DNA from: Candidatus Gottesmanbacteria bacterium
GTDB lineage: Bacteria > Patescibacteriota > Microgenomatia > UBA10105 > UBA927
Reading direction: 5' to 3'
Assembly (NCBI GenBank): GCA_016218255.1
Contig: JACREN010000002.1
Coordinates: forward strand, 4,029-68,028
Length of the DNA stretch: 64,000 nt
Every line of letters starts with the position of its first letter. Position 1 is the stretch's first letter. This document shows positions 53,134 through 57,744 of this stretch, in pieces. Under the pieces are notes generated by a model. The model was given only the letters and a program-made list of their open reading frames with translations. It searched no databases and had not been told where the DNA came from. Made by a program: the position numbers and the translations under genes.

Positions 53134-53526
53134 ATGTTACCATATGACTATATGAAACAATCGGTCAAACATATAAAAAAACTACGGCCCTACCCGTCTC
53201 CTGCAATGAAGGAATTATTTAATGCAGCCCTACTCCTTCGAACACCACGCGAGGCATCTGATTTTTTTCGGGATTTACTGACGATCGCAGAATTAACCGA
53301 ATTTGCGAGCCGGTGGCAGATAGTCAAACGACTCAACAAAGGAGAATCCTACCTGAAAATTGCCACGGAATTAAATGTCTCAACAACCACCGTCACCCGC
53401 GTTGCCCAGTGGCTTCATGAAGGAATGGGAGGCTACCGCACGATTGCTACCCGTGCATTCGGCAAAAATCCCGACTACCAGCCGGAAAAACCACTCATCC
53501 CCCGCGGGAAACGCTGGGTGCGATAA
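53134..53526 (+). CDS. TrpR-related YerC/YecD-family HTH protein
   Basis: DLLTIAELTEFASRWQIVKRLNKGESYLKIATELNVSTTTVTRVAQWL matches the YerC/YecD (Trp-repressor-like) helix-turn-helix core. Confidence 0.65.
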   Translation: MLPYDYMKQSVKHIKKLRPYPSPAMKELFNAALLLRTPREASDFFRDLLTIAELTEFASRWQIVKRLNKGESYLKIATELNVSTTTVTRVAQWLHEGMGGYRTIATRAFGKNPDYQPEKPLIPRGKRWVR

Positions 53527-53609: not shown

Positions 53610-53638
53610 TTGACACCATTTTTATAATATTGTAATAT
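53610..53638 (+). promoter_or_regulatory. sigma-70-like promoter (TTGACA-17bp-TAATAT) for the 53890 operon
   Basis: Perfect -35 TTGACA 53610-53615, 17-bp spacer, -10 TAATAT 53633-53638. Confidence 0.45.
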
Positions 53639-53667: not shown

Positions 53668-53889
53668 TACACTGATATATGAGCCCCTTCATCACTGTTT
53701 TTGCTGTTATAAATAAATATCTTCGACCAGAAATAAATACTGGCGTTTCTTCGCGCGTTTCCCCAGTTTTCCATCACCACCTCACCCGCTAATCTGCGCG
53801 CGGTCGAGGCGAGATTTCATATTTTTTCCACCTTCTCTTCTTAACCGTACGTAGATACCGTTTCTACGCACAAAAGGGGGGTGAAAAAT

Positions 53890-54915
53890 ATGAAGCTCGA
53901 ATTTACTAGAATGAATAACATAGATGGAGATCCGCTTTTGATACGCGGCAGTGAAGCGGCGCTTGCATCAGGCGGTGCATATATCGTCACACAGGATACC
54001 GAACGCCTCCTCCTGCGACTGGGTGTTATCTTACCCGATCGCGACATCCAGACATTTAATACCGCAGTACTGCAGACGCTTTCGCCTGTATTTAATGTTG
54101 TTATGACGGACGAAAACCGCTTTTATAATCGGCTCGGCACTGCGTTTGTTTATGCCTGTATCAGGGCGAAATCCGAAAACGCTGAAGTCATACTTCTTGA
54201 CCGATTTATTAGCGCGCCGGGTCTACCGCCAGATGAATTTTCAACCCTTAGTATCGGACGCGTAACGACACCTATCGGAGAAATACTTGGGCCGCGCCCC
54301 GGCGATCCGGATATAGATGAGCAGCTTGCCATCATAGATGCAAAGATGAGACAAAAGGGAACAAATAAAATCATACTCGTAGACGACGGCCTTTCTACCG
54401 TTGATGCCCTTGAGCCATATGAGGAAATCGCCAACACCCAAGGGTGGCAAATCGTAGATATGACATTGGGAGTATTACCGTCTGCTGGCAACGGCGACGA
54501 GTGGAACACAAAAGCCGCTGCAATGATAATTACCGGCAGATCGCCTGTCTGCGTACTACCAGTAACGTCTCCTCTCGATTGGATTTGCCAACGTGATTTT
54601 ACTCTTTTTGGCGGAAAAACGGTTGCAATGGACGGCGTCGGGTACCCATTGACTGCTCCGTACTTTAGCCCCTTTACCGGAGGACAAAGTGCGAGCATAC
54701 CGACCGGACGACTGAATGAGGTAAGTCAAAAAATCCTGCTTGCCAATCAAGCCATGATTAGAGCAATCGATCGTCAAATCGGACAACCATTGACGTTTAC
54801 TGACGTGTTAAATGCCGGCTATGGGCTACCCGTAAGTTTATTAGGCAAACTTCCGATACCTTCGCCGGAAGATAGTGTAACTGAATATATAGGTACCGCG
54901 TTGGCATGCATATGA
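53890..54915 (+). CDS. hypothetical protein with PRTase-like nucleotide-binding motif
   Basis: 341 aa; KIILVDDGLSTVDAL resembles type I phosphoribosyltransferase PRPP-binding loop (hydrophobic4-DD-x3-T); SD AAGGGGGG upstream of ATG at 53890; stop overlaps next start. Confidence 0.45.
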   Translation: MKLEFTRMNNIDGDPLLIRGSEAALASGGAYIVTQDTERLLLRLGVILPDRDIQTFNTAVLQTLSPVFNVVMTDENRFYNRLGTAFVYACIRAKSENAEVILLDRFISAPGLPPDEFSTLSIGRVTTPIGEILGPRPGDPDIDEQLAIIDAKMRQKGTNKIILVDDGLSTVDALEPYEEIANTQGWQIVDMTLGVLPSAGNGDEWNTKAAAMIITGRSPVCVLPVTSPLDWICQRDFTLFGGKTVAMDGVGYPLTAPYFSPFTGGQSASIPTGRLNEVSQKILLANQAMIRAIDRQIGQPLTFTDVLNAGYGLPVSLLGKLPIPSPEDSVTEYIGTALACI

Positions 54916-55676
54916 AAGAAATGGAATCGATACCATCGCTGTGGTACCAATCAGATCCGCGGCGGCTCGACCAGACAAACATACCTCTTGGATGGGTACG
55001 TGAGGTCGTGCCGCTGCGGGCATACGCCCAAAACCTGTTCGCCATTGTCGGCACTTCAGGATGCGGCCGGGACACGCTCATTGACGCCATGATGGTTCTC
55101 TCTCCCACACTGGCCCGTGTGCGGCGGACGACGACCCGGCCCTCTCGATATCCCAACGAATCCGTCCGTATTCTCTCCCTGTCTGAGTCATCGTTTACCG
55201 CAATACAGCAAAATCAAAAAATATTGTGTCCGTACCGGTATCCTCCAAATGGAAAATGGTACGGCATTTCACAGGATGAATTGAAAATAATAAAACAGGG
55301 ACCGGCGATCCTCGAAGGAACCGCAGAAATTCTTCCGCTTAAAATGCTGCTTCCGGAAAGCACCGCAGTCATCATTGTCCCGCGGTCATTCAATCAATTA
55401 GAACAGCAGCTCATAGGCCGCGACGGCGAAACTGCGGAGACACTCAAGCGCGTCGAGCGATCAAAACGGGAGCTTACCATCCTATTGACACGCTTACCCC
55501 GACTGATTGAGACAAACGCAATCAATGGCATAGTGATAAACGATGATACACCCGCAAATGTTGGCTCGCGTACGCTTATGCAAATGCAAGGCAATATGTG
55601 GCCAACCGCGATACCACAAAAATTACAGACGGATATTACAGACTATTTATCACAATGGAATTGTACTAGCGTATGA
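54906..55676 (+). CDS. guanylate kinase/PhnN-fold P-loop kinase with atypical Walker A (GTSGCGRDT)
   Basis: Aligns along full length with Gmk: LFAIVGTSGCGRDTLIDAM ~ LYIVSAPSGAGKSSLIQAL; RRTTTRPSRYPNE ~ HTTRQPRPGE; NGIVINDD ~ YLIVNDD; Lys-to-Arg and Ser-to-Asp in P-loop (PhnN has GKDS). Confidence 0.6.
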   Translation: MHMKEMESIPSLWYQSDPRRLDQTNIPLGWVREVVPLRAYAQNLFAIVGTSGCGRDTLIDAMMVLSPTLARVRRTTTRPSRYPNESVRILSLSESSFTAIQQNQKILCPYRYPPNGKWYGISQDELKIIKQGPAILEGTAEILPLKMLLPESTAVIIVPRSFNQLEQQLIGRDGETAETLKRVERSKRELTILLTRLPRLIETNAINGIVINDDTPANVGSRTLMQMQGNMWPTAIPQKLQTDITDYLSQWNCTSV

Positions 55677-56611
55677 AACCTATCCTGTACATAGACACCG
55701 ATGCTGGAGTTGACGATATCGTTGCGATTTGTATGATCATCGCCGCTGATACATTTGATGTACGGGGTATAAGTATCGTAAACGGGGTGGCTTCGGTATC
55801 CCGCGGCATACGGAATCTTTCCCGCATTCTGCCGACCATAACACAATCAATAATTCCACTATATAGTGGGATAAATCAAACCAGCCAAAACTCAAGCGTT
55901 CAATTTCCCCCAATCGACCGAATTCGTGCTGAATCTTTTGCGCTATTCCCCGGCATATCCTTCCCTCCCTCATCTGGCAAATTCGGAAATATAAAAGACC
56001 TGCAAAAAAGCATCGCAGCACAAAATGAGTCGGTTACTTTTCTTTGTCTGGGGCCGCTGAGCAATATTGCGTATTTGCTACAAAACACCAGCATCCGTAC
56101 GGTTGTCCGAGAATTGGTTATCATGGGTGGCGCAGTCAATGTGCCCGGCATCGTGCCACCCCGTAATATCTCGGAGTATAATTTCAGGCTGGATGCTGTT
56201 GCTGCAAACATGATTCTCCGATCATCAATTCCCAAAAGACTTATTCCCATCGATGCAACGAAAAAAGTACCTGCAACTATGGCCTCTGCGTCTAAAACCA
56301 TGCAGTCTACCGTGCAAATGTTTTTCAACGATGTATCTGCCGCCCAACCGCTATCCAATGCTGGCAAAATTATCCGTTCCATAATACTGAATAACACGGG
56401 CGATTTTCAAAACTTCTACGACCCGCTTGCAGCAGCCACCCTGCTCAGTCGCACTATAACGTGCCAATGGCACCCGTATAATCTTTCTGTATCGACAAAA
56501 GGATATTGTAAAGGGAAAGTGCTCGTTGGAAAAAACAAAAATACAACACAGGTCCCTGAAACCATCAATGCAGGGGCGTTTTATTCACTCATGATACAAT
56601 CACTGCAATGA
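55673..56611 (+). CDS. inosine-uridine-preferring nucleoside hydrolase family protein
   Basis: N-terminal Ca-binding aspartate cluster ILYIDTDAGVDDIVAI (DTDPGxDD signature); 312 aa. Confidence 0.75.
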   Translation: MKPILYIDTDAGVDDIVAICMIIAADTFDVRGISIVNGVASVSRGIRNLSRILPTITQSIIPLYSGINQTSQNSSVQFPPIDRIRAESFALFPGISFPPSSGKFGNIKDLQKSIAAQNESVTFLCLGPLSNIAYLLQNTSIRTVVRELVIMGGAVNVPGIVPPRNISEYNFRLDAVAANMILRSSIPKRLIPIDATKKVPATMASASKTMQSTVQMFFNDVSAAQPLSNAGKIIRSIILNNTGDFQNFYDPLAAATLLSRTITCQWHPYNLSVSTKGYCKGKVLVGKNKNTTQVPETINAGAFYSLMIQSLQ

Positions 56612-57744
56612 TACGAAAAACAACAGCTGCAACCGCACTTTTGATCACCAACCCTACAAATATACGGTATCTCACCGGATTTACGGGCGCAGCTCCCGAG
56701 GAACGGGAGGCGTATGTCTTGTTGACTCAAAAAACGCCCTATTTGTTTACAAGCGCGCTATACCGTGAGTCAACAAAAAATCTCAAATCACAAATCCCAA
56801 TGACCAAACAGGATACGATAACGACTGTTGAAATTTCACGCGAAGATCCCTTTACGAAAAAACTTACTGAAATTCTCAAAAAAAATGCGTGCGTTCGCTT
56901 AGAATTTGAGGAGAACAACCTCACCGTAGCAGAACTTGGAAAGCTGAAAAAGGAACTTAAGGGAATCACTCTCATCCCAACACAAAACAAAATCGAAGAA
57001 CTGCGGGTGATCAAAAAAGATGATGAAATTACCAACATCCGTGCCGCAGCAACATGCACGGATCGATGCTTTGATTATATCCTCGGCAAACTCAAACCAG
57101 GAATTTCAGAAAGACAAATCGCGTGGGAAATCGAATCATACATCAGAAAAAACGGCGCGTCTCTCGCCTTCTCGCCTATCGTCGCGTTTGGAAGGAATCC
57201 TTCCATGCCTCATTATCAACCAAAAGACAGATGCAAGCTGACCGCTAACAACTTAATTCTTCTGGACTTTGGCGCGCGCGTCAACGGCTACTGCAGCGAT
57301 ATGACGCGGGTGGTATTTACGGGCAAACCAAAAAACGAATGGCTGCATGCTTACAATACAGTTTTTGAGGCCCAATCCGCTGCAATCAAATACCTGCAAG
57401 CTCAAGGGCGAACCTTAAATCCACAACTCTTAGGCACCAAAGCAGATCAAATCGCGAGGGATGTTATTGAGCGCGCTGGTTTCCCTACCTATCCCCACTC
57501 TCTCGGCCATGGCGTAGGACTGGACATACACGAAATTCCCCGCCTCATATCCCAGAAGGATCGCATCCTTCCAAAAACTCAACCACAGAAGGATGCGATC
57601 CTTCTATCTGGCATAGTGCTCACTGTCGAGCCAGGTATATATATGGAAGGCTCCTATGGCATCCGGATTGAAGATTTGGTACTCTTAAAACAAGATGGCA
57701 TTGAACTGCTTTCCAAAAGTCCAAAAAACATCATCATTCTATAA
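56608..57744 (+). CDS. M24B Xaa-Pro aminopeptidase
   Basis: HSLGHGVGLDIHEIP metal-ligand motif; creatinase-like N-domain. Confidence 0.85.
   Translation: MIRKTTAATALLITNPTNIRYLTGFTGAAPEEREAYVLLTQKTPYLFTSALYRESTKNLKSQIPMTKQDTITTVEISREDPFTKKLTEILKKNACVRLEFEENNLTVAELGKLKKELKGITLIPTQNKIEELRVIKKDDEITNIRAAATCTDRCFDYILGKLKPGISERQIAWEIESYIRKNGASLAFSPIVAFGRNPSMPHYQPKDRCKLTANNLILLDFGARVNGYCSDMTRVVFTGKPKNEWLHAYNTVFEAQSAAIKYLQAQGRTLNPQLLGTKADQIARDVIERAGFPTYPHSLGHGVGLDIHEIPRLISQKDRILPKTQPQKDAILLSGIVLTVEPGIYMEGSYGIRIEDLVLLKQDGIELLSKSPKNIIIL

What the first reader, a model, noticed from the sequence alone, without database searches (positions are those of the whole stretch)
54906..55676. Guanylate-kinase-fold protein with Walker-A Lys-to-Arg and Ser-to-Asp substitution (GCGRDT)
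Full-length collinearity with Gmk is visible in three blocks: P-loop block, TTRP-R block and the IVNDD block. In canonical Gmk the catalytic P-loop lysine is invariant. Here it is Arg, followed by Asp-Thr. The only Gmk-family branch I know with an Asp in this position is PhnN (GPSGSGKDS). The protein is therefore either inactive and MAGUK-like, or has a different phospho-acceptor.
Basis: partly seen in the sequence, partly recalled or inferred. Interest (0 to 1): 0.6.

Follow-up and report, generated by a model that had tools for sequence, protein, structure and literature searches.

The report
Guanylate-kinase offshoot with arginine P-loop
A gene in a tiny, nutrient-scavenging bacterium (Patescibacteria) encodes a guanylate-kinase relative whose normally invariant ATP-binding lysine is an arginine across nearly its whole small family; it has lost the guanine-binding residues and, in this subgroup, always sits next to (or is fused to) an undescribed phosphoribosyltransferase-like protein and a nucleoside hydrolase, which points to an undescribed nucleoside-salvage enzyme.

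Summary
ORF 54906..55676 (true start probably 54912) is a guanylate-kinase (Gmk)/PhnN-fold protein, and its Walker A reads GTSGCGRDT where Gmk has GxxGxGK[STDG]T.

- **Arg is a family trait.** It is encoded by five different Arg codons across loci and is present in 20 of 22 diverse relatives.
- **Separate clade.** The relatives form their own clade (67% bootstrap), distinct from Gmk and PhnN. One nested member has reverted to Lys within the same gene module.
- **The Asp is not diagnostic.** Asp is the commonest residue after the Walker Lys in canonical Gmk.
- **Active site.** The phosphoryl-transfer residues are kept: P-loop glycines, LID arginines, and the acceptor-phosphate arginines and tyrosine. 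The guanine-recognition residues are lost, and extra arginines line the acceptor pocket.
- **Context.** In ten lineages the gene follows, with a 4-nt overlap, or is fused to an uncharacterised protein with a phosphoribosyltransferase-like predicted fold. A nucleoside hydrolase gene follows it.

Best reading: an active, non-guanylate phosphotransferase forming the kinase half of a nucleoside/base salvage module. The acceptor is unresolved: an NMP, or a ribose-1,5-bisphosphate-type compound. A non-catalytic nucleotide-binding role is not excluded.

Verdict: new variant of a known fold, moderately interesting.

The parts
54912..55676 (+).
   Evidence: ORF. Gmk and PhnN HMM hits are far below cut-offs. 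hhalign against Gmk gives 99.8%. Homologues start at MKE.
55050..55076 (+). Walker A / P-loop GTSGCGRDT; the R55 codon CGG lies at 55068..55070
   Evidence: Aligned to the GxxGxGK[ST]T of solved Gmk structures. Arg in 20 of 22 family representatives. Five synonymous Arg codons across loci.
55116..55148 (+). Acceptor-site block R71-V-R73-R74-T-T-T-R78-P-S-R81. R78 and R81 correspond to Gmk R38 and R41. R74 replaces the guanine-binding Ser/Thr34.
   Evidence: Key-residue table. Family conservation: R74 in 21 of 22, R78 and R81 in 22 of 22. The same 'RR-x-(T/I)-T-R-P' pattern occurs in PhnN-like proteins.
55419..55451 (+). LID segment R172...R182, corresponding to Gmk R135 and R146
   Evidence: R172 in 22 of 22 and R182 in 21 of 22. 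Alignment to Gmk.
53890..54915 (+). Upstream partner gene (341 aa from the ATG at 53890; the ORF is listed from the GTG at 53881). Uncharacterised family with a PRTase-like predicted fold. Its stop overlaps the kinase-like start by 4 nt.
   Evidence: No Pfam or NCBIfam hit. AF2 pLDDT 89.4. Foldseek finds type I PRTases at probability 0.97-0.99 but E of only 2e-3 to 1e-2. Fused to the kinase-like domain in proteins of about 580-625 aa.
55673..56611 (+). Inosine-uridine-type nucleoside hydrolase gene; its start overlaps the kinase-like stop by 4 nt
   Evidence: PF01156 at E 1.9e-42. DTDAGVDD motif present. Follows the kinase-like gene or fusion in every locus long enough to show it.
53134..53526 (+). 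TrpR-family regulator gene, 355 bp upstream of the module; possible regulator (inference only)
   Evidence: PF01371 at E 1.4e-18. Directly upstream of the module in L023/L024 and nearby in L001-L004. A promoter-like site at 53610..53638 lies in the gap, but the scan as a whole is not above chance.
56608..57744 (+). M24 Xaa-Pro-type peptidase gene, overlapping the hydrolase stop by 4 nt. Probably co-transcribed here, but not a conserved module member.
   Evidence: PF00557 and PF01321. Separated by about 270 bp in L001. Absent after the module in L005, L008, L009, L011 and L023.

Best explanation
The ORF encodes a member of a small, previously undescribed offshoot of the guanylate-kinase fold. 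Every member whose source carries a taxon name is from Patescibacteria. The Walker-A lysine became arginine once, at the base of this family.

The protein is most likely still an ATP-dependent phosphotransferase. Arg55 would take over the Lys role of holding the beta and gamma phosphates. It has given up GMP as acceptor. Its acceptor would instead be the phosphomonoester of another phosphoribosyl compound, held in a pocket made more basic by R71, R73, R74 and, in this subgroup, R88 and R111.

It works as the kinase half of a two-part enzyme with the upstream PRTase-fold protein. The two are translationally coupled here and are one polypeptide in other lineages. They form an operon with a nucleoside hydrolase.

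The concrete scheme I favour, by inference:
1. The hydrolase splits a scavenged nucleoside into base and ribose.
2. The PRTase-fold partner joins the base to PRPP to give an NMP.
3. This kinase converts the NMP to an NDP.

**Shown:** homology, the family-wide Arg, the retained and lost residues, the fusion, and the conserved gene order. **Inferred:** catalytic competence, the identity of the acceptor, and the activity of the partner.
For: **Homology and separateness.** hhalign to Gmk gives 99.8%, E 1e-27. The protein scores far below the Gmk and PhnN cut-offs. The Arg set plus P0029 forms a clade in 67 of 100 bootstraps.

**Arg is selected.** It is present in 20 of 22 representatives and uses five different codons.

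**Lys and Arg are interchangeable in the same module.** The fusion P0029 has GKTT and is nested inside the Arg clade. It keeps the order TrpR-like, fusion, IUNH.

**Catalytic kit is kept** in 19-22 of 22 members: G52, G54, T57, R78, R81, Y119, E137, R172 and R182.

**Guanine contacts are lost.** S/T34 becomes R. E69 becomes C/F/S/A. D/E100 becomes G/T. Y50 becomes I/L.

**Partner link.** The N-terminal halves of seven fusion proteins of about 580-606 aa are 31-39% identical to the upstream ORF. The eighth fusion, P0171 (625 aa), is 34% identical. The partner-kinase-IUNH order, or fusion plus IUNH, holds in ten lineages, three of which have different flanking genes.

**Partner fold.** pLDDT is 89.4. 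The non-spurious Foldseek hits are OPRT, APRT, HGPRT and XPRT. A strand ending in 'IILVDDG' is followed by a helix, as in a PRPP loop.

**Salvage precedent.** Nucleoside hydrolase plus PRTase is the classic salvage pair of purine/pyrimidine auxotrophs (abstracts listed, e.g. PMC10474468, PMC2187136). A cytidine/dCMP deaminase gene lies nearby in L003/L004.
Against: - From established mutational work, e.g. RecA K72R, Walker-A Lys-to-Arg usually keeps nucleotide binding but slows phosphoryl transfer 100- to 1000-fold. I found no described natural Arg-Walker-A kinase, so activity is unproven.
- The partner lacks the T-G-x-T 5-phosphate part of the PRPP loop. It has only weak fold E-values and no sequence-level PRTase hit.
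- The acceptor segments of the window protein score better against PhnN-like proteins (25.5 bits) than against Gmk (13.1 bits). This favours the PRPP-forming rival.
- Another branch of the same Arg-type family lies in glycan clusters with radical-SAM, glycosyltransferase, sulfotransferase and Wzt genes. Those clusters have no partner or hydrolase gene. An NMP-kinase role explains that poorly.
- The AF2 model of the kinase-like protein itself was poor, pLDDT 51.6, so no pocket geometry is available.
Confidence: 0.4

Rival explanations
1. PhnN-like reading. The protein phosphorylates the 1-phosphate of ribose 1,5-bisphosphate, or a similar doubly anionic sugar phosphate, to make PRPP. It hands the PRPP directly to the fused or adjacent PRTase-fold partner, which joins it to a base released by the nucleoside hydrolase.
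For: - It shares with PhnN-like proteins an Arg at Gmk position 34, the 'RR-x-(T/I)-T-R-P' block, an aromatic-x-x-(N/H)-G-x-x-Y-G-I block and an 'x-G-(S/T)-x-x-x-L-P' block. Where Gmk has E69 it has a non-acidic residue.
- The window protein's acceptor domain scores 25.5 bits against PhnN-like proteins and 13.1 bits against Gmk.
- TIGR02322 PhnN is nearly as good a hit as Gmk: 40.2 against 42.1 bits.
- A PRPP maker fused to a PRPP-user fold is chemically sensible. By inference, PRPP supply could also suit the glycan-cluster branch.
Against: - Overall the family is closer to Gmk: mean 37-44 bits against 23-26, and hhalign E 1e-27 against 3e-18.
- Family-wide, the acceptor domain scores 15.8 bits against Gmk and 11.3 against PhnN-like proteins.
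- R41 is kept as in Gmk, whereas PhnN-like proteins have Asp there.
- The family never groups with the PhnN-like clade (0 of 100 bootstraps).
- There is no phn operon nearby, and no source of ribose 1,5-bisphosphate is evident in the module.
Confidence: 0.22
2. Non-catalytic nucleotide- or phosphate-binding subunit. The Arg P-loop binds ATP, or another phosphate ligand, without transferring phosphate. The domain would regulate or scaffold the PRTase-fold partner. This resembles a MAGUK GK domain in being a pseudo-enzyme, although the P-loop is intact.
For: - Established knowledge: Lys-to-Arg in Walker A generally preserves binding and cripples transfer.
- Strongly conserved N- and C-terminal extensions suggest a protein-protein interface. 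Examples are SIPSLWYQSDP and DYLSxWN. The N-terminal extension corresponds in position to the inter-domain linker of the fusions.
- MAGUK GK domains show that the Gmk acceptor-phosphate site can be re-used for ligand binding (established knowledge; PDB 4f4j title).
Against: - Both LID arginines, the acceptor arginines, Y119 and the P-loop glycines are conserved in 19-22 of 22 members. That is more than binding alone would need.
- A Lys revertant works in the same module.
- Some family members occur without the partner.
Confidence: 0.2
3. It is simply the organism's guanylate kinase, with a tolerated conservative Lys-to-Arg change. It would complete a guanosine, guanine, GMP, GDP salvage operon.
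For: - Gmk is the best overall hit.
- JGI names the fusion P0029 'guanylate kinase'.
- The operon logic would work for guanine.
- No other gmk lies in the 64-kb window.
Against: - It scores 42 bits against the 160-bit equivalog cut-off, and it is below the Pfam gathering score.
- All three guanine-contact positions (34, 69, 100) and Y50 are changed family-wide, whereas the Lys-type Gmk hits keep them almost without exception.
- The family is rare: 22 representatives at E<=1e-10 among 1.84 billion, and one locus in a pattern-limited scan of 185,579 species genomes. Gmk is universal.
Confidence: 0.06
4. Artefact: a sequencing or assembly error, or a decaying pseudogene.
For: None beyond the oddity of the motif.
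Against: - The reading frame is intact.
- Arg recurs in independent assemblies with five different codons.
- The close set has 82% mean column identity.
- Overlapping start and stop codons are conserved.
Confidence: 0.01

Closest known systems
Guanylate kinase (Gmk; TIGR03263, Pfam PF00625)
   Same: Same fold and collinear over the core, NMP-binding and LID parts. The P-loop glycines, R38/R41/Y78 equivalents (R78, R81, Y119) and LID R135/R146 equivalents (R172, R182) are kept.
   Different: Walker-A Lys is Arg. Guanine contacts S/T34, E69 and D/E100, and also Y50, are replaced. There are about 40-aa N-terminal and 30-aa C-terminal extensions. Scores lie far below the family cut-offs. The protein is coupled or fused to a PRTase-fold protein.
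PhnN, ribose 1,5-bisphosphokinase (TIGR02322)
   Same: Same fold. Arg at Gmk position 34, the 'RR-x-x-T-R-P' block, a non-acidic residue at position 69 and an 'x-G-S/T-x-x-x-L-P' block are shared. For the window protein, the acceptor domain scores higher against PhnN-like proteins than against Gmk.
   Different: PhnN has the Walker Lys and has Asp at position 41. It forms its own 100%-supported clade that never includes this family. The core plus LID of the window protein is Gmk-like: 26.7 against 2.8 bits. There is no phosphonate operon.
MAGUK guanylate-kinase-like (GK) domains
   Same: Gmk-derived domains that no longer use GMP (established knowledge). They are a possible model if this protein proves non-catalytic.
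   Different: MAGUK GK domains have lost the P-loop and sit in eukaryotic PDZ-SH3-GK scaffolds (established knowledge; not tested against MAGUK sequences here). This protein keeps an intact G-x-x-G-x-G-R-x-T loop and the LID arginines, and it is bacterial.
Uridine kinase-uracil phosphoribosyltransferase fusion proteins (UCK/UPRT type) and the nucleoside hydrolase + PRTase salvage pair of auxotrophic protozoa
   Same: They pair a P-loop kinase with a PRTase in one polypeptide for salvage (own knowledge). Hydrolase-then-PRTase is the route from nucleoside to NMP in organisms without de novo synthesis (abstracts).
   Different: The kinase fold there is the PRK/uridine kinase type acting on a nucleoside hydroxyl, not a Gmk fold acting on a phosphate. 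The PRTase there is canonical, with a full PRPP loop. Here the partner is a new family with only fold-level resemblance.

Membership tests
Guanylate kinase (TIGR03263 / PF00625) | Whole-protein HMM score above the curated cut-off | tested here: not met
   TIGR03263: 42.1 bits against a cut-off of 160.45. PF00625: 19.9 bits against a gathering score of 25.2.
Guanylate kinase (TIGR03263 / PF00625) | Walker-A lysine (yeast K14) | tested here: not met
   R55 aligns to the Lys. Every Lys-type hit outside the family has K.
Guanylate kinase (TIGR03263 / PF00625) | Guanine-recognition residues (yeast S34, E69, D100) and Y50 | tested here: not met
   These positions are R74, C108 (or P/Y depending on gap placement), T139/G138 and I89. 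Gmk hits keep S/T, E, D/E and Y. The residue roles come from the 1GKY literature (own knowledge).
Guanylate kinase (TIGR03263 / PF00625) | Acceptor-phosphate residues (R38, R41, Y78) and LID arginines (R135, R146) | tested here: met
   R78, R81, Y119, R172 and R182 are conserved in 21-22 of 22 members.
PhnN ribose 1,5-bisphosphokinase (TIGR02322) | HMM score above the curated cut-off | tested here: not met
   40.2 bits against a cut-off of 156. NF007485 gives 16.8 against 153.
PhnN ribose 1,5-bisphosphokinase (TIGR02322) | Clade membership and signature residues (K14, R34, D41) | tested here: not met
   R34 is shared, but the protein has R at position 14 and R at position 41. The PhnN-like clade has 100/100 support and joins the family in 0 of 100 replicates.
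PhnN ribose 1,5-bisphosphokinase (TIGR02322) | PRPP-forming activity on ribose 1,5-bisphosphate | not testable with these tools
   Needs an enzyme assay.
MAGUK GK pseudo-kinase domain | Degenerate P-loop; PDZ-SH3-GK eukaryotic architecture | tested here: not met
   The P-loop scaffold G49/S51/G52/G54/T57 is intact. This is a stand-alone or PRTase-like-fused bacterial protein. MAGUK features are taken from established knowledge, with no direct alignment to MAGUK sequences.
Type I phosphoribosyltransferase (for the upstream partner) | PRTase core fold | tested here: inconclusive
Type I phosphoribosyltransferase (for the upstream partner) | PRPP-binding motif: four hydrophobic residues, two acidic residues, x-x, then T-G-x-T | tested here: not met
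   'IILVDDGLSTVD': the hydrophobic run and D168-D169-G170 are invariant, but the T-G-x-T part is absent and variable (F-D, W-D, S-N) in the fusions. No Pfam or PDB sequence hit.
Inosine-uridine nucleoside hydrolase (PF01156) (for the downstream gene) | HMM above cut-off and the N-terminal DxDxxxDD Ca-binding motif | tested here: met
   146.4 bits against 34.2. DTDAGVDD in the window gene, and the motif is present in all nine module hydrolases checked.
Inosine-uridine nucleoside hydrolase (PF01156) (for the downstream gene) | Leaving-group His of the 'HDP' motif | tested here: not met
   The window gene has 'FYDPLA' aligned to 'LHDPLA' of 6ba1. Tyr is also found in L001, L003 and L005. The role of the His is from own knowledge.

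The most novel reading that the evidence does not exclude
This would be the first natural family of P-loop kinases that is catalytically active with arginine in place of the Walker-A lysine. It would form the kinase half of a new bifunctional enzyme: a PRPP-forming or NMP-phosphorylating kinase joined to a new PRTase-fold transferase. That enzyme would let Patescibacteria rebuild nucleotides from scavenged nucleosides or ribose bisphosphate. A sister branch would be recruited to cell-surface glycan modification.
Probability: 0.15. Interest if true: 0.8.

Novelty: new variant of a known kind. Interest (0 to 1): 0.55.

Why it matters
- **P-loop enzymology.** The Walker-A lysine is among the most conserved catalytic residues known. 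This family has replaced it with arginine while keeping the rest of the phosphoryl-transfer apparatus, and it contains one natural Lys revertant. That offers a ready-made system to ask whether and how arginine can do the job.
- **Patescibacteria metabolism.** By general knowledge, Patescibacteria have reduced genomes and depend on scavenged nucleotide precursors. A conserved three-gene module, with two of its three proteins unannotated, is a candidate for a missing salvage step in these organisms.
- **Annotation.** Members are currently labelled 'hypothetical protein' or, wrongly by the residue evidence here, 'guanylate kinase'.

Tried and rejected
- **AF2 of the kinase-like protein.** With the 10-sequence alignment the model was poor (pLDDT 51.6). 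I used it only to confirm that Foldseek returns nothing but Gmk.
- **Sequence searches for the partner.** Single-sequence and profile searches against PDB sequences gave nothing significant.
- **Locus searches with broad alignments.** Narrower ones found only 1 locus in species genomes and 6 in metagenomes.
- **Third homologue search.** Run with the partner profile, it added only two fusion proteins.
- **Defence-system reading.** No PADLOC hit for any of the three proteins.
- **Literature.** Searches for a natural Walker-A Arg kinase found only BcsQ. There a different, trans-acting Walker lysine is Arg and plays a structural role.
- **AstE/AspA-like, HAD and HisA-like neighbours.** These occur in other lineages but have no homologue in the window, so I did not count them as core parts.
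- **Canonical gmk.** None is in the window. I could not examine the rest of the genome.
- **PhnN membership.** I considered it because of the local motif similarity and rejected it on the tree and on overall scores.
Full report
**1. The observation**

The window has an ORF at 54906..55676 (+, 256 aa). Close homologues begin at MKE..., so the real start is probably the ATG at 54912. That ATG overlaps the TGA of the upstream ORF in an ATGA. The stop at 55674..55676 overlaps the ATG of the next gene in the same way.

Homology to guanylate kinase (Gmk) is weak by family thresholds but statistically secure.
- NCBIfam TIGR03263: E 6.7e-11, 42.1 bits against a cut-off of 160.45. PhnN TIGR02322: E 2.8e-10, 40.2 bits against 156.
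- Pfam Guanylate_kin: 19.9 bits, below the gathering score of 25.2.
- Solved guanylate kinases by sequence: E down to 3.3e-5, with gtsgcgrdt aligned to APSGAGKTS.
- Profile-profile comparison with nine proteins, of which the seven tested all pass the Gmk equivalog cut-off: probability 99.8%, E 1e-27.

R55 (CGG, 55068..55070) therefore sits at the Walker-A lysine position.

**2. Arg is a family trait, not an error**

The word-indexed search of 5.8 billion proteins found nine homologues at 64-92% identity. Those with taxon names are from Patescibacteria or Gottesmanbacteria. All carry G-x-G-R-D-T.

A full HMMER scan of 1.84 billion cluster representatives with that profile gave 810 hits at E<=1e-3 but only 22 at E<=1e-10. 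The nearest twenty or so form a distinct group. It contains stand-alone proteins of about 250 aa and proteins of about 580-625 aa with the Gmk-like domain at the C-terminus. Their Walker A is G-x-S-G-x-G-R-[DST]-[TS]. All more distant hits have Lys.

- In a 22-member alignment, R55 is present in 20 members.
- In the loci I fetched, the Arg is encoded by CGG, AGA, CGA, CGT and CGC.
- A neighbour-joining tree of 116 sequences over 185 columns recovers the Arg set plus P0029 as a clade in 67 of 100 bootstraps.
- P0029, a fusion with GKTT, is nested inside that clade, so its Lys is a reversion.
- P0039, a Lys-type protein named by its source as from a Woesearchaeota archaeon, falls outside the clade.
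- Four PhnN-like proteins form a 100%-supported clade that never joins the family.

**3. The Asp is a red herring**

Among Lys-type hits, the residue after the Walker Lys is Asp in 50 of 113, ahead of Thr (23), Ser (19) and Gly (11). Seven GKD[ST] proteins score above the guanylate kinase equivalog cut-off. The claim that Asp at this position marks PhnN is therefore wrong.

**4. What is kept and what is lost**

I used yeast Gmk as a numbering ruler. The residue roles are from the 1GKY literature, which is my own knowledge. The table and the family alignment show the following.

| Gmk position (yeast) | Role in Gmk | This family |
|---|---|---|
| P-loop glycines, T16 | ATP binding | G52, G54 in 22/22; T57 in 19/22 |
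| R38, R41 | acceptor phosphate | R78, R81 in 22/22 |
| Y78 | acceptor phosphate | Y119 in 21/22 |
| R135, R146 | LID | R172 in 22/22; R182 in 21/22 |
| D98 | acid after strand 3 | E137 in 19/22, by the HMMER alignment and via PhnN; hhalign against Gmk puts a gap here, so this equivalence is less certain |
| S/T34 | guanine contact | R74 in 21/22 |
| E69 | guanine contact | C/F/S/A, never acidic, whichever of three gap placements is used |
| D/E100 | guanine contact | G/T |
| Y50 | acceptor phosphate | I/L |

New conserved residues are R71, R/K73, Y112, N115 and K146.

PhnN-like proteins also have Arg at position 34, an 'RR-x-(T/I)-T-R-P' block, a non-acidic residue at 69 and an 'x-G-S-x-x-x-L-P' block. 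They differ in having Asp at position 41.

Scored by region, the window protein's acceptor domain gives 25.5 bits against the PhnN-like profile and 13.1 against Gmk. Its core plus LID gives 26.7 against Gmk and 2.8 against PhnN-like. Family-wide the acceptor domain is slightly more Gmk-like, 15.8 against 11.3 bits. Overall similarity favours Gmk.

The protein is thus a Gmk-derived enzyme whose acceptor pocket has been rebuilt and made more basic.

**5. Context**

The upstream ORF (53881/53890..54915) has no Pfam, NCBIfam or PDB sequence match. It has 12 homologues, all unannotated. One is a 100% match named 'hypothetical protein HY948_00380 [Candidatus Gottesmanbacteria bacterium]'.

The N-terminal halves of seven fusion proteins align to it at 31-39% identity. 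Shared motifs are DRF, S-x-G-R, RPGD, VDDG, DW-x-C-x-RD, GGK, Y-x-x-PF...G-x-SAS and GYGLP-x-S. A further fusion, P0171, is 34% identical. This is a Rosetta-stone link between the two window genes.

With that 16-row alignment, AlphaFold2 gave pLDDT 89.4 and pTM 0.85. Foldseek against the PDB returned type I phosphoribosyltransferases (OPRT, APRT, HGPRT, XPRT).
- Probability was 0.97-0.99 and target TM-score 0.45-0.53.
- E-values were only 2e-3 to 1e-2.
- These hits were interleaved with low-probability MTHFR hits.

Strand 163-170 ends in the invariant D168-D169-G170 and is followed by a helix, as in a PRPP loop. The T-G-x-T phosphate-binding part is missing. I treat 'PRTase-like fold' as probable and 'PRTase activity' as inference.

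The downstream gene (55673..56611) is an inosine-uridine-type nucleoside hydrolase (PF01156, E 1.9e-42) with DTDAGVDD.

The order partner, kinase-like, hydrolase (or fusion, hydrolase) is found in every locus long enough to show it. Including the window, that makes ten lineages.

| Locus or loci |
|---|
| L001/2/7/13/14 |
| L003/4 |
| L005 |
| L008 |
| L009/10 |
| L011 |
| L012 |
| L016/17 |
| L023/24 |

- L005, L008 and L009 show different flanking genes; the contigs of L012 and L016/17 are too short or were not examined.
- Most gene junctions overlap by 4 nt; the exceptions are 16- and 19-nt overlaps in L005 and L008 and a 5-nt gap in L009.
- L006 and L015 are truncated contigs that still show the partner-kinase pair.
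- Accessory neighbours vary. An AstE/AspA-type hydrolase occurs in three lineages, a HisA/HisF-family barrel in L008/L009, and a HAD hydrolase plus a cytidine/dCMP deaminase in L003/4. None has a homologue in the window.
- A TrpR-family gene lies just upstream in the window and in L023/24. A promoter-like site at 53610..53638 lies in the gap, but the scan overall is not above chance.
- No PADLOC defence model matches any of the three proteins.

**6. A second context for the family**

Four Arg-type members lie in glycan-type clusters: P0027, P0028, P0025 and L018:4869..5633. The clusters contain B12/radical-SAM and SPASM enzymes, glycosyltransferases, a Wzt-type ABC exporter, a polysaccharide flippase, sulfotransferases and a NUDIX gene. 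No partner-like or hydrolase gene is present on the contig stretches available, which extend between about 0.5 and 6 kb on either side. The family's chemistry is therefore not tied exclusively to the salvage-like module. Any final assignment must accommodate both settings.

**7. Mechanism**

Shown:
- Gmk-fold homology.
- A family-wide Arg under selection.
- Retention of the phosphoryl-transfer and acceptor-phosphate residues.
- Loss of the guanine contacts.
- Fusion or translational coupling to a PRTase-like-fold protein.
- Constant adjacency to a nucleoside hydrolase in this subgroup.
- Interchangeability of Lys and Arg within the same module.

Inferred: the protein is an active ATP-dependent phosphotransferase for a phosphomonoester acceptor other than GMP, and that acceptor is a substrate or product of the partner.

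| Reading | Estimate | Main support |
|---|---|---|
| Hydrolase, then PRTase-like, then NMP kinase (nucleoside to base to NMP to NDP) | about 0.4 | It parallels the hydrolase-plus-PRTase salvage of auxotrophic protozoa (abstracts). It matches the overall Gmk affinity and the retained R41. |
| PhnN-like, PRPP-forming | about 0.22 | The window protein's acceptor-segment similarity to PhnN. |
| Non-catalytic nucleotide-binding subunit | about 0.2 | The usual effect of Lys-to-Arg in Walker A (established knowledge). |
| Ordinary Gmk | about 0.06 | Gmk is the best overall hit. |
| Artefact | about 0.01 | Effectively excluded. |

**8. Comparison and novelty**

The fold is known. The following appear to be undescribed:
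- the family;
- the Arg-type Walker A as a conserved trait alongside an otherwise intact catalytic kit;
- the partner domain;
- the three-gene module.

The basis is that sources call members 'hypothetical protein' or 'guanylate kinase', Pfam has no model for the partner, and my literature searches found no natural Arg-Walker-A kinase. I rate it a new variant of a known kind, with interest 0.55.

**9. Limits**
- No enzyme data.
- No reliable model of the kinase-like protein.
- The PRTase assignment of the partner rests on weak fold scores.
- The tree is a simple distance tree on very divergent sequences.
- I could not check whether the same genomes also carry a canonical gmk or prs.

Noticed in passing
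L018:4869-5633; L019:6001-6765; L021:2597-3349; JGI contig carrying P0025: A branch of the same Arg-Walker-A family lies in glycan-type clusters. These contain B12/radical-SAM and SPASM enzymes, GT2/GT4 glycosyltransferases, a Wzt ABC exporter, a Polysacc_synt flippase, Sulfotransfer_1 and NUDIX genes. No PRTase-like partner or nucleoside hydrolase gene is present on the stretches available. This suggests a broader acceptor chemistry for the family.
   Followed up: partly
window 55673..56611 (residues about 247-253, 'FYDPLAA'): The module's nucleoside hydrolase keeps the DxDxGxDD motif. It has Tyr where the solved IU-nucleoside hydrolase 6ba1 has the His of 'LHDPLA'. The same Tyr is seen in L001, L003 and L005. 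It may be a distinct specificity subgroup.
   Followed up: partly
window 53134..53526: A TrpR-family (PF01371) regulator gene lies 355 bp upstream of the module. The same family is directly upstream in L023/L024 and close by in L001-L004. It is a possible dedicated regulator in organisms not expected to make tryptophan.
   Followed up: no
L003:6141-6947, L005:2879-3667, L023:9705-10379: An AstE/AspA-type (PF24827) zinc hydrolase gene flanks the module in three lineages, either upstream or downstream. It has no homologue in the window.
   Followed up: partly
L008:7091-7792, L009:4030-4719: A lone HisA/HisF-family (PF00977) barrel gene follows the nucleoside hydrolase directly in the lineage that carries the most divergent fusions. 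This enzyme class acts on phosphoribosyl compounds. The link was not pursued.
   Followed up: no
window 53881..57744: Four consecutive genes are chained by 4-nt ATGA start/stop overlaps: the partner, the kinase-like gene, the hydrolase and an M24 peptidase. The peptidase is not a conserved member of the module elsewhere.
   Followed up: yes
window 54912..55040 and 55590..55670 (N- and C-terminal extensions of the kinase-like protein): The extensions are almost invariant among close homologues (SIPSLWYQSDP...IPLGWV and DYLSxWN). A tail motif of the form F-[ED]-[DN]-x-S-x-L-x-x-S-L recurs in fusions and in glycan-cluster members. It is probably an interaction surface. The N-terminal extension corresponds in position to the inter-domain linker of the fusions.
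   Followed up: partly
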